59,432 bases of DNA from a virus (IMGVR_UViG_3300010371_000005:1-59432), one strand, 5' to 3'. Counted from the first letter of the stretch, positions 40,965-41,525 are shown. Numbers and translations: made by a program. The notes: generated by a model not told the origin, from the letters alone.

Positions 40965-40993
40965 TTGACACTTATCGGGCATGCACGTAAGGT
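40965..40993 (+). promoter_or_regulatory. Family A promoter driving the ncRNA
   Basis: TTGACA-CTTATCGGGCATGCACG-TAAGGT. Confidence 0.8.
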
Positions 40994-40999
40994 TCATCT

Positions 41000-41525
41000 C
41001 AGCGCAACGGGGGACCGCCCCTCGGACACGAGAAACGGGTGAGCTGGGGATGCCCAGGAACCCACCGTTGCTGACAGCGGGAAAGACCGCCCCGGCTCTC
41101 GGGAGTCCTAGCGGGGACCGAGCGGGTTGACTGGCGCTAGGGGTGCCGACTTAGTGCGTCGCGTAGATCCGGTTCGCCGGGGAGGGCGCACAGGGGTTAC
41201 CGGTTCGATCCGGGCGGCGCGCGCAGATACGGTCCAGACGCCTAACCAGCAGAAAGGGCCGGGCAAGCAGATCAGCCCACCTGGTGGTGACCTGAGCAAA
41301 CTAGCCGGTTGGTCCCGGCGAAGTGCGAGGGGCGGAGCGGGGTTCGACTCCCCGCCTGATCGCGCAGCAACCGAGAGGCAGGACCACGTCGTCACTCGGG
41401 CCGGGCGGATAGGTAGCGAGCGTCGCCGGCACGCAGCACACAACCGAATAGCGCACCTGAGCAGGCTGAACGCGTCGTCAGTGCAGGTGTCATCAGGGGC
41501 TCGCGTGCAGGAAAGCGCTTGCCTC
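41000..41525 (+). ncRNA. Large structured ncRNA or precursor containing tRNA-like elements 3 (41156-41221) and 4 (41267-41364)
   Basis: Strong promoter, no credible ORF, consecutive hairpins, two GGTTCGA T-loops closed by acceptor-like stems. Confidence 0.7.

What the first reader, a model, noticed from the sequence alone, without database searches (positions are those of the whole stretch)
40965..41525. About 530-nt structured non-coding transcript inserted antisense in the tail operon
Seen: a TTGACA-N17-TAAGGT promoter is followed by no credible ORF. The region has a closed 5' domain (GCAACGG near 41002 pairing with CCGTTGC near 41065), a GCGG-GAAAGA-CCGC hairpin, two tRNA-like units, and further stems (GCACCTG/CAGGTGT). 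It ends at the next promoter repeat. Known: phages carry large structured ncRNAs often associated with tRNAs (GOLLD, ROOL). Inference: this is a polycistronic RNA precursor or a new large ncRNA class.
Basis: partly seen in the sequence, partly recalled or inferred. Interest (0 to 1): 0.82.

Follow-up and report, generated by a model that had tools for sequence, protein, structure and literature searches.

The report
Phage cassette of tRNA-shaped non-coding RNAs
A soil phage carries, backwards inside its tail genes, a promoter-driven stretch that makes no protein but a string of separately folding RNAs, two built on a tRNA frame that cannot read codons; it joins the poorly understood tRNA-like stable RNAs of phages, and its job is unknown.

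Summary
Region 40965-41530 (+) has a conserved phage promoter, no credible ORF, and structures kept by compensatory changes in six related uncultured phages. It is not one large RNA but a cassette of modules that are swapped, replaced or absent independently.

- A (41004-41071): variable 5' domain.
- B (41071-41223): leader hairpin, H-type pseudoknot and a three-way junction with a T-loop-like hairpin. On 6 sequences, 97.7% of cells pair and 11 of 40 pairs change on both sides.
- C (41224-41364): anticodon-loop-like hairpin plus a 93-nt cloverleaf with acceptor, D-like arm and canonical T arm. Its 'anticodon' arm is about three times too long and ends in an invariant UUGGUC loop.
- D (41365-41530): bulged hairpins with an invariant 18-nt apex, then a terminator-like hairpin.

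In one relative the same cassette holds an Rfam-grade tRNA. Rfam, ARAGORN at default settings and 50,697 phage records give no match. The phage has no integrase, Ro, RtcB or CCA-adding enzyme.

Best reading: a tRNA-cluster-derived polycistronic precursor, cut by host tRNA-processing enzymes into stable tRNA mimics. Processing and function are inferred, not shown. The closest known kind is the tRNA-like stable RNAs of phages T5 and T4. I class it as a new variant of a known kind.

The parts
40965..40993 (+). Promoter P1: -35 TTGACA (40965-70), 17-nt spacer, -10 TAAGGT (40988-93). It overlaps the start of the divergent tail-completion gene.
   Evidence: Sequence. It is one of 6 copies of the phage promoter motif in the window and is conserved in relatives.
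41004..41071 (+). Module A: window-specific 5' domain closed by GCAACGG/CCGTTGC.
   Evidence: Minimum-energy fold only. Relatives carry unrelated sequence here, about 136 nt in L009, L007 and L010. A relative in DNA run X2 joins an L009-like module A to a window-like module B at 41070/41071.
41071..41090 (+). CUGACAG plus leader hairpin H1 (GCGG-GAAAGA-CCGC, 41077-90).
   Evidence: 2 of 4 pairs change on both sides and 100% of cells pair. The same CUGACA + GAAAGA-loop hairpin sits directly before a genuine tRNA in L079.
41091..41141 (+). H-type pseudoknot of module B. Stem 1 is 41091-94 and 41098-102 with 41118-26. Stem 2 is 41107-13 with 41135-41.
   Evidence: Stem 1: 4 of 9 pairs change on both sides. 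Stem 2: 4 of 7 pairs. In L079 a single base difference from L012 turns an A.C into an A-U pair in stem 2.
41143..41220 (+). Three-way junction of module B: closing stem 41143-47/41216-20; long arm 41154-60/41185-91 with a CCGG-UUCG-CCGG tip (41169-80); T-loop-like hairpin CCGG-UUCGAU-CCGG (41200-13).
   Evidence: 100% of cells pair in all four helices. Changes are mostly one-sided G-C/G.U/A-U switches. The covariance model R1 finds it only in the window, L007, L009, L010 and L012.
41224..41269 (+). Leader of module C: hairpin with an invariant 7-nt loop CUAACCA (41242-48), like an anticodon loop.
   Evidence: RNAalifold and pair counts. The motif GCCUAACCAGC is invariant in 4 of 4 aligned variants.
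41270..41362 (+). tRNA-shaped RNA of module C: acceptor GAUCAG/CUGAUC, D-like hairpin (41278-89), an 11-bp interrupted 'anticodon' arm tipped by GCCGG-UUGGUC-CCGGC (41304-19), a 5-nt variable loop, T arm CGGGG-UUCGACU-CCCCG (41338-54), discriminator G; no CCA is encoded.
   Evidence: On 4 sequences, 95.7% of cells pair and 6 of 36 pairs change on both sides. With L023 added, 15 of 36 pairs do. ARAGORN calls it tRNA-??? only at a lowered threshold. Rfam tRNA-Sec scores 15.4 bits and mascRNA 19.1 bits, both far below their cut-offs.
41371..41399 (+). Hairpin hp1 with the invariant apex GGCAGGACCACGUCGUCA (a bulged apical stem with a CAC loop).
   Evidence: 7 instances of this apex in 5 variants, with different but complementary flanking stems in 6 of the 7; L012's first copy has only 2 adjacent pairs. 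In the window the exact 14-mer occurs only here.
41400..41430 (+). Hairpin hp2.
   Evidence: RNAalifold on 3 close sequences; no covariation available.
41454..41489 (+). Hairpin hp3, a second type of the conserved-apex hairpin (…GCUGAACGCGUCGUCAG…).
   Evidence: The outer stem CACCUG/CAGGUG becomes CGCCU/AGGCG in L010.
41495..41526 (+). GC-rich terminal hairpin hp4 followed by GAAAGAUCUUG. It is the likely end of the transcript and is paralleled after the next gene (41880-41912).
   Evidence: It has no U-tract, and the terminator scan finds nothing.
41548..41870 (+). Next unit of the same + strand island: promoter P2 (TTGCCA-18-TAAAGT) and an 86-aa ORF (41610-41870). This is context, not part of the RNA.

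Best explanation
The region is an independently transcribed 'moron' cassette set against the flow of the tail genes. It is derived from a phage tRNA gene cluster.

Shown:
- It has a conserved promoter and no ORF.
- Four modules fold separately on the + strand RNA, and relatives exchange them one at a time.
- Module B is a hairpin, an H-type pseudoknot and a three-way junction with a T-loop-like hairpin.
- Module C is a cloverleaf with tRNA-like acceptor, D-like and T arms. Its 'anticodon' arm is far too long and ends in a 6-nt loop, so it cannot decode.
- Module D is a set of hairpins with an invariant apex.

Inferred:
- P1 makes a precursor of about 530 nt (roughly 41000-41530).
- Host RNase P cuts 5' of the acceptor-like stems (predicted at 41269/41270).
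- RNase Z or exonucleases trim behind the discriminator (41362), and the host adds CCA.
- This releases stable tRNA-shaped RNAs and flanking hairpin RNAs.

Most likely role (about one chance in three): the conserved 'top half' (acceptor, T arm, elbow) acts as a tRNA mimic. It would titrate or distract a host factor that binds tRNA, such as a tRNA-targeting defence nuclease or nucleotidyltransferase. The invariant loops (UUGGUC, CUAACCA, the 18-nt apex) would be specific contact sites.
For: Non-coding:
- No ORF passes the GC3 filter in 40972-41609.
- Three 1-nt indels separate the window from L009.

Promoter:
- P1 is one of 6 motif copies in the window, conserved in relatives.

Structure:
- Module B: 40 pairs, 97.7% of 220 cells paired, 11 pairs changed on both sides. 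0 of 500 shuffles reach this, and slid controls give 34-50% paired with at most 1 such pair.
- Module C: 95.7% of 141 cells paired and 6 of 36 pairs changed on both sides. With the distant homologue L023 added, 15 of 36 pairs.
- Strand: 26 G.U cells against 4 A.C cells favour the + strand RNA.

Modularity:
- Module C is replaced in L007 and L012.
- It is missing in relatives seen in DNA runs: joints 41220->41370 with 7 letters between, and 41223->41363.
- The A|B boundary lies at 41070/41071.

tRNA-cluster origin:
- L012/L079 hold an Rfam tRNA (42.8 bits) and an ARAGORN tRNA-Gly in the same cassette.
- That tRNA is preceded by the same CUGACA + GAAAGA hairpin.
- Module C has a canonical T loop and a GG in its D-like loop.
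- ARAGORN calls module C at a relaxed threshold.

Dependence on the host:
- No CCA-adding enzyme, RtcB, Ro or integrase in the complete 59-kb genome.

Precedent:
- The T5 record annotates RNA1 and RNA2 as 'tRNA-like stable RNA with unknown functions' within its tRNA region.
- T4 RNAC and RNAD are RNAs 'of yet unknown functions' (PMC9697503, passages).
Against: - No direct evidence of transcription, processing or stability exists. No listed run is on record as RNA.
- Only 6-7 distinct variants exist, and several are close. The module C structure was derived from the same sequences it was tested on. Alignment A5 is fitted to the model.
- Module B's T-like loop has 6 nt, not 7, and module B has no D arm, so recognition by RNase P is uncertain.
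- Module D has almost no orthologous covariation: 1 of 44 pairs.
- The decoy role rests on analogy only. No defence gene, host or partner protein is known.
- 15 of 21 related loci lack the cassette, so it is dispensable.
Confidence: 0.6

Rival explanations
1. It is one large structured ncRNA that works as a single unit, a new class comparable to GOLLD or ROOL. The tRNA-like parts would be domains of one machine.
For: One promoter and one terminal hairpin bracket about 530 nt. GOLLD and ROOL are phage-borne and often lie near tRNAs (recalled). Possible loop-loop complementarity between CUAACCAG (41242-49) and UUGGU (41309-13); both are invariant, so it is untestable.
Against: Modules A and C are replaced or absent independently while B and D persist. 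L011 has C without B, and L012 has B without C. No conserved long-range helix was found. Rfam gives no match.
Confidence: 0.12
2. It acts mainly in cis at the transcription level. A strong antisense unit inside the late operon would damp, insulate or time read-through of the tail genes. Its folds would serve only as stabilisers or terminators.
For: P1 overlaps the start of the tail-completion gene and fires away from it. No promoter motif was found on the minus strand between 42690 and 40972, so late transcripts must cross the island antisense. The whole island 40965-42690 is + strand within a minus-strand operon.
Against: Sequence-invariant loops and a covarying pseudoknot and cloverleaf go far beyond what a terminator or insulator needs. 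15 of 21 related loci, and phiAsp2, run the same operon without it. Neighbouring + strand units are ordinary small genes.
Confidence: 0.1
3. It is a decaying tRNA gene cluster. The units would be tRNA pseudogenes drifting without function.
For: It resembles tRNAs yet fails the tRNA models. The related tRNA-like gene at 23981 has a hypervariable arm among relatives.
Against: Helices are kept by compensatory changes. Loops of 6-18 nt stay invariant between phages whose flanking sequence has diverged to about 74-80% identity. The promoter is conserved.
Confidence: 0.07
4. It encodes a protein (the 133-aa frame 41127-41528, or the 225-aa minus frame 41108-41785), or it is an attP / integration remnant built from tRNA 3' ends.
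For: Open frames exist, as everywhere in 66% GC DNA. T-arm plus acceptor fragments are typical of attP sites (established knowledge).
Against: Frame-breaking 1-nt indels. The frames fail the GC3 filter. Both acceptor strands are present and covary. No tyrosine or serine recombinase in the complete genome. No prophage relatives in 185,579 species genomes.
Confidence: 0.02

Closest known systems
tRNA-like stable RNAs of phage tRNA regions: T5 RNA1 and RNA2 (NC_005859.1 30501-30644 and 32959-33083) and T4 RNAC and RNAD
   Same: They are phage-encoded and non-decoding. The T5 pair is tRNA-like and lies among or beside tRNA genes under phage promoters. They accumulate as stable RNAs, and their function is unknown after decades (PMC9697503 passages). 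That T4 RNAC and RNAD lie in the tRNA cluster and are cut by RNase P is recalled, not checked.
   Different: No detectable homology: models R1 and R2 find nothing in the T5 tRNA region. Here the host is a high-GC actinobacterium-type organism, and the cassette sits antisense in the tail operon. It includes a pseudoknot module and hairpins with an invariant apex.
Canonical tRNA (Rfam RF00005) and phage tRNA clusters
   Same: Module C has a 6-7 bp acceptor, a D-like hairpin with GG, a 5-nt variable loop, and a 5-bp T stem with a UUCGAYU loop. A relative has real tRNAs in the same cassette.
   Different: The 'anticodon' arm has about 11 bp with two internal loops and a 6-nt loop. There is no RF00005 hit at E<=10 and no ARAGORN call at default settings. 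It cannot decode.
tmRNA (tRNA-like domain plus pseudoknots)
   Same: It combines pseudoknot(s) with a T arm and an acceptor-like stem, and a long helix stands in place of the anticodon arm.
   Different: No tmRNA hit by ARAGORN or Rfam. There is no G3:U70. The only candidate tag frame, ending at GCCUAA (41239-44), shifts frame between the window and L009 and instead forms a covarying hairpin. No CCA is encoded.
tRNA-like processing handles: MALAT1 mascRNA and the gammaherpesvirus 68 tRNA-miRNA (TMER) transcripts (recalled)
   Same: A tRNA-shaped element inside a longer transcript, followed or preceded by hairpins. This is how I expect the cassette to be cut. A weak mascRNA model hit covers 41311-41361 (19.1 bits against a cut-off of 42.5).
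   Different: Those are eukaryotic or animal-virus systems. The score is far below the family cut-off. Cleavage here is untested.
GOLLD and ROOL large phage ncRNAs
   Same: Phage-borne, structured and often near tRNAs (recalled).
   Different: No Rfam match. The element here is modular and recombining rather than one conserved large fold.

Membership tests
tRNA (RF00005) | Score at or above the Rfam gathering cut-off (29 bits), or a default ARAGORN call | tested here: not met
   No RF00005 hit at E<=10 in 40800-41700. ARAGORN finds 0 genes in the window. It makes a call only at -ps90, as 'tRNA-???' with a 2-nt anticodon.
tRNA (RF00005) | 5-bp anticodon stem with a 7-nt loop at the standard distance from the elbow | tested here: not met
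   The arm has 3+3+5 bp with internal loops and a 6-nt UUGGUC loop.
tRNA (RF00005) | Acceptor stem, and a T arm with a UUCRANY loop | tested here: met
   Module C: GAUCAG/CUGAUC and CGGGG-UUCGACU-CCCCG, which covary in L011 and L023. Module B has only a 4-bp stem with a 6-nt UUCGAU loop.
tmRNA | Detected by the ARAGORN or Rfam tmRNA models; conserved tag reading frame; G3:U70; 3' CCA | tested here: not met
   Searches give no hit. The low-threshold 'tmRNAp*' calls appear in L009 and L011 only, with unrelated peptides. The frame before GCCUAA is shifted by a 1-nt indel between variants.
GOLLD / ROOL / other Rfam large ncRNAs | Match to the family covariance model | tested here: not met
   cmscan of the whole window at gathering thresholds returns only the tRNA at 23981. 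Nothing appears at E<=10 in the region, nor in L079 or L007 at E<=5 apart from the L079 tRNA itself.
Phage tRNA-region stable tRNA-like RNAs (T5 RNA1/RNA2, T4 RNAC/RNAD) | Phage-encoded, tRNA-like but non-decoding, in or derived from a tRNA cluster | tested here: met
   (structure). (tRNAs in the same cassette of a relative). (T5 annotation).
Phage tRNA-region stable tRNA-like RNAs (T5 RNA1/RNA2, T4 RNAC/RNAD) | Accumulates as a discrete stable RNA after processing | not testable with these tools
   No RNA holder is listed. Contigs cannot show RNA ends.
Phage tRNA-region stable tRNA-like RNAs (T5 RNA1/RNA2, T4 RNAC/RNAD) | Sequence or structure homology to the T5 RNAs | tested here: not met
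   R1 and R2 find no match in T5 30300-33300.
Bacterial Y RNA / YrlA with Ro (Rsr) | Rfam Y RNA match and a TROVE-domain partner gene | tested here: not met
   No Y RNA hit in the region. No TROVE domain in the genome.

The most novel reading that the evidence does not exclude
The cassette is a phage counter-defence or tRNA-sensing device built from tRNA mimics. The tRNA-shaped scaffold would present an invariant UUGGU loop, found in a hairpin loop in 6 of 7 variants, including the non-homologous module of L007. This loop would pair with NCCA-3' ends of tRNAs, as the T-box UGGN bulge and the RNase P L15 GGU motif do. The conserved top half and the pseudoknot module would occupy a host enzyme that attacks or modifies tRNA acceptor ends or elbows. 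Candidates are toxin nucleotidyltransferases of the MenT/AbiE type or tRNA nucleases, which are abundant in actinobacteria. The 18-nt invariant hairpin apex would be the operator for a specific protein partner.
Probability: 0.15. Interest if true: 0.8.

Novelty: new variant of a known kind. Interest (0 to 1): 0.52.

Why it matters
Phages have been known since the 1970s to make stable tRNA-like RNAs from their tRNA regions, and nobody knows what these RNAs do. This cassette is a compact example from high-GC soil phages with clear anatomy:
- a promoter,
- exchangeable modules,
- a pseudoknot joined to a T-loop junction,
- a cloverleaf that keeps only the upper half of a tRNA,
- three invariant loop motifs.

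That makes the question testable with a 600-bp construct. If the RNAs turn out to be decoys for tRNA-directed immunity or binders of tRNA ends, that would explain a widespread class of phage genes that is usually left unannotated. If not, the locus is still a useful annotation: these genomes are currently read as having no RNA genes here.

Tried and rejected
- Known families. Rfam at gathering thresholds on the whole window, and E<=10 on the region, gave nothing near a cut-off. The same holds for two relatives.
- Named phages. blastn of 40900-41620 against 50,697 phage records gave no match, and likewise for the tRNA-like gene at 23975-24080.
- Folding energy is not informative: z = -0.35 on the + strand and +0.74 on the - strand.
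- More homologues.
  - Three viral contigs pattern scans returned only known contigs, with two fresh locus ids on them: L082 on L011's contig and L031 on L012's.
  - The 18-mer apex also hit 42 other stretches. 40 of them share one unrelated context that looks like a conserved gene (not checked), and 2 have other contexts.
  - The one metagenome scan gave 6 stretches: 5 were known variants and L078 is an unrelated low-GC chance match.
  - The genome-contig scans found no copy of module C and no prophage relative.
  - Relatives cannot be drawn for a virus record.
- tmRNA idea: rejected, because the frame is not conserved.
- Intron idea for the long arms: no common 7-nt anticodon loop is left after removing any insert, and there is no RtcB.
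- attP idea: no integrase.
- Expression. No RNA holder is listed. Two wastewater runs of one study are labelled RNA-Seq cDNA; the tool marks X4 as probably DNA and X5 as a guess. They hold short contigs identical to 41011-41186 and 41323-41466. The rest of the 2.2-kb stretch is matched only by short divergent pieces. I do not count this as evidence of transcription.
- Neighbouring small proteins (86, 88 and 64 aa). No Pfam family, no PHROG for the 86-aa one, and no viral relatives for it. The Atlas gave only an automatic 'helix-turn-helix' cluster name for the 88-aa one. No link to the RNA was found.
- Weak covariance-model hits were judged chance and not followed: L013 and L014 with R1 (E about 0.01), and window 56412-56555 with R2 (E 0.027).
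- Supplements of PMC10690425 (10,006 candidate viral RNAs from IMG/VR) could not be seen. This family may or may not be listed there.
- Literature. Searches 'tRNA-like' + 'actinobacteriophage', 'phage' + 'tRNA-like' + 'extended anticodon stem', and 'phage' / 'tRNA mimic' / 'anticodon nuclease' / 'decoy' turned up no description of this element.

Full report
**Setting**

The window is a complete viral record of 59,432 bp with direct terminal repeats. CheckV rates it 100% complete. GC content is about 64-70%.

The nearest named phage is Actinoplanes phage phiAsp2, with 59% amino-acid identity over half of the head-tail adaptor.

Genes around the finding run on the minus strand:
- tape measure, 35909-38110;
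- tail-completion / Neck1 protein, 40534-40971;
- head-tail adaptor, 43244-44713.

Between 40965 and about 42690 lies a + strand island:
- promoter P1 and the ORF-free stretch;
- P2 (41548) with an 86-aa ORF (41610-41870);
- P3 (about 41922) with an 88-aa ORF (41983-42249);
- a 64-aa ORF (42335-42529);
- a hairpin at about 42650-42690.

phiAsp2 has the same gene order without such a gap.

**Checking the observation**

- P1 is TTGACA (40965-70), 17 nt, TAAGGT (40988-93).
- It belongs to a phage-specific promoter motif with 6 copies in the window: 7131(-), 23252, 40979, 41563, 41937 and 49672.
- The repeat at 41904-41977 matches 41528-41603 at 93% identity, E = 1e-25.

No ORF in 40972-41609 passes a GC3 filter that keeps 61 ORFs elsewhere. 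Three 1-nt indels against the 86%-identical relative L009 break the 133-aa frame.

ARAGORN at default settings finds no tRNA or tmRNA in the window. Rfam at gathering thresholds finds only a tRNA at 23981-24076. At E<=10 the region gives 7 weak hits, the best with E = 0.5:
- mascRNA, 19.1 bits against a cut-off of 42.5;
- tRNA-Sec, 15.4 against 47;
- tymovirus TLS, 13.4 against 40.

All three lie on the second T-arm unit. Folding energy is no better than shuffles: z = -0.35.

**Relatives**

The tail-completion protein recovered 22 loci from IMG/VR, 21 of them distinct.

The element lies upstream of that gene, on the opposite strand and behind the same promoter motif, in 6 of the 21: L007, L009, L010, L011, L012 and L023.

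Pattern scans of IMG/VR, one metagenome scan and two genome scans added no further variant. The exception is a one-base variant of L012, seen in L079 and L080.

**The region is modular**

Alignment splits the region as follows.
- A (41004-41071): unique to the window. L009, L007 and L010 carry an unrelated stretch of about 136 nt.
- B (41071-41223): present in the window, L009, L007, L010 and L012.
- C (41224-41364): present in the window, L009, L010, L011 and, distantly, L023. L007 and L012 have other T-arm-bearing modules in its place.
- D (41365-41530): present in the window, L009 and L007; rearranged in L010.

Contigs of DNA runs from other soils show the same boundaries:
- a joint 41220->41370 with 7 other letters between, and a joint 41223->41363 (module C missing);
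- a window-like module B (2 differences in 153 letters) preceded by an L009-like module A, starting at 41071.

In L012/L079 the cassette continues with an Rfam-grade tRNA (42.8 bits) and an ARAGORN tRNA-Gly. That Rfam-grade tRNA is preceded by CUGACA plus a hairpin with a GAAAGA loop, the same leader that opens module B.

**Module B**

I proposed eight helices and counted them on six sequences.
- 97.7% of 220 cells pair.
- 11 of 40 pairs change on both sides.
- No shuffle out of 500 reaches this.
- Sliding the partners by 1-3 columns gives 34-50% pairing and at most 1 such pair.

The fold has three parts.
- A leader hairpin (41077-90).
- An H-type pseudoknot. Stem 1 is 41091-94 and 41098-102 with 41118-26. 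Stem 2 is 41107-13 with 41135-41, and 4 of its 7 pairs are compensatory.
- A three-way junction closed by 41143-47/41216-20. It carries a long arm tipped by CCGG-UUCG-CCGG and a T-loop-like hairpin, CCGG-UUCGAU-CCGG.

A covariance model of B finds it only in these five phages.

**Module C**

RNAalifold gives an anticodon-loop-like hairpin with an invariant CUAACCA loop, followed by a cloverleaf at 41270-41362.

The cloverleaf has:
- an acceptor stem, GAUCAG/CUGAUC;
- a short D-like hairpin with GG in its loop;
- a 5-nt variable loop;
- a canonical T arm.

In place of the anticodon arm it has an 11-bp interrupted arm that ends in an invariant UUGGUC loop.

Pair counts:
- on four sequences, 95.7% of cells pair and 6 of 36 pairs change on both sides, with 0 of 500 shuffles reaching this;
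- a model built from it found a distant copy in L023 (28.6 bits, E about 1e-5 to 1e-6) at the same genomic position;
- with L023 added, 15 of 36 pairs change on both sides.

That last alignment is fitted to the model, so it leans towards the structure.

ARAGORN reports module C only at a lowered threshold, as a tRNA with a 2-nt 'anticodon'.

**Strand**

Across B and C there are 26 G.U cells and 4 A.C cells. The folds therefore belong to the + strand RNA.

**Module D**

Four hairpins are predicted, but three close sequences give almost no covariation: 1 of 44 pairs.

Two of the hairpins carry a conserved apex. The 18-mer GGCWGGAMCACGUCGUCA occurs 7 times in 5 variants. Its flanking stems differ in sequence; in 6 of the 7 copies, 4-7 complementary pairs abut the apex, and L012's first copy has only 2. 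A second type of apex occurs 4 times.

In the window the exact 14-mer core is found only at 41381. The last hairpin plus GAAAGAUCUUG is mirrored after the next gene and probably ends the transcript. It has no U-tract, and the terminator scan is empty.

**What it is not**

- Not coding (see above).
- Not tmRNA: no model hit, and the only candidate tag frame is not conserved and instead forms a covarying hairpin.
- Not GOLLD or ROOL.
- Not an attP: no integrase, and both acceptor strands covary.
- No Ro, RtcB or CCA-adding enzyme in the phage. Among 20 proteins scanned with Pfam, none is RNA-related.

**How it most likely works**

Shown: a conserved promoter; non-coding, + strand RNA folds under selection; exchangeable modules; a tRNA frame without a usable anticodon; and true tRNAs in the same cassette of a relative.

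Inferred: a precursor of about 530 nt is cut by host RNase P and RNase Z at the tRNA-like elements, and CCA is added. This would yield stable tRNA-shaped RNAs and hairpin RNAs.

What selection keeps is the upper half of the tRNA shape plus a few invariant loops. I therefore favour a mimic or decoy role towards a host factor that binds tRNA. That is analogy, not evidence.

**Comparison with what is known**

The T5 record annotates RNA1 and RNA2 as 'tRNA-like stable RNA with unknown functions' among its tRNAs. T4 RNAC and RNAD are 'RNAs of yet unknown functions' (PMC9697503, passages read). The present RNAs share that description but show no homology to the T5 region.

Earlier notes of this scan describe similar arrays in other phages. 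They are unchecked leads, and I verified only the T5 annotation.

**Verdict**

This is a real, conserved, modular tRNA-derived ncRNA cassette. It is a new variant of a known but unexplained kind, of moderate interest.

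Noticed in passing
window 23981-24076 (+); L084:1501-1590, L085:1501-1598(-), L083:1501-1580: The only Rfam tRNA of the phage (41.9 bits) has 30 nt where the model expects 9. It folds as a cloverleaf with an elongated anticodon arm tipped by UUGAAGC. Orthologues in two related phages keep an almost identical acceptor, D arm and T arm, but carry completely different arms of 24-32 nt. The result is a tRNA body with a hypervariable non-decoding arm.
   Followed up: partly
window 7131(-), 23252, 40979, 41563, 41937, 49672: Six copies of a phage-specific promoter-like motif (TTGMCA ... 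GGCATG-N3-GTAARGT). The copies at 41528-41603 and 41904-41977 share 93% identity over 74-76 nt, including an upstream AAAGATCTTG block.
   Followed up: partly
window 41610-42605 (+): The rest of the antisense island holds small + strand genes (86, 88 and 64 aa, and perhaps a 26-aa peptide) with no family match. The listed minus-strand ORF 41902-42336 is probably spurious. Relatives in DNA runs lack the 64-aa gene (joints 42326->42523 and 42326->42527).
   Followed up: partly
window 8696-10984 (-) and 11304-14168 (-): Two large proteins carry LAGLIDADG homing-endonuclease domains. One of them is a ResIII/DEAD helicase with the domain inserted at residues 238-305. This suggests inteins.
   Followed up: no
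window 56560-56830: This is the lowest-GC part of the genome (0.595). It holds long perfect inverted repeats: about 34 nt (GGTCAGAGGGGGTGGGAAGACGAAGGGAACTTGA) and a C/G-rich palindrome around TATATACGTAGTAATA. It could be a regulatory or replication/packaging site.
   Followed up: no
L023:2880-3300 (-): The distant relative's cassette has four T-loop-like hairpins within about 420 nt, nested inside one acceptor-closed unit. It also has its own CCGG-UUGGU-CCGG hairpin.
   Followed up: partly
window 41309-41313; L007, L011, L023 elements: UUGGU sits in the loop of a hairpin with a stem of at least 5 bp in 6 of 7 variants, including the non-homologous module C' of L007. In L012 it is not in a clear hairpin. 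By chance, a UUGGU anywhere in an element has a probability of 0.12-0.40 per element.
   Followed up: partly
window 52282-53190 (-): A Bro-N/ANT (KilAC) antirepressor-type protein is encoded among the head genes of a phage that has no detectable integrase.
   Followed up: no
L079:1805-1881: The tRNA-Gly(UCC) that ARAGORN calls in the relative's cassette gets no Rfam tRNA hit at E<=5. It may also be non-canonical.
   Followed up: no
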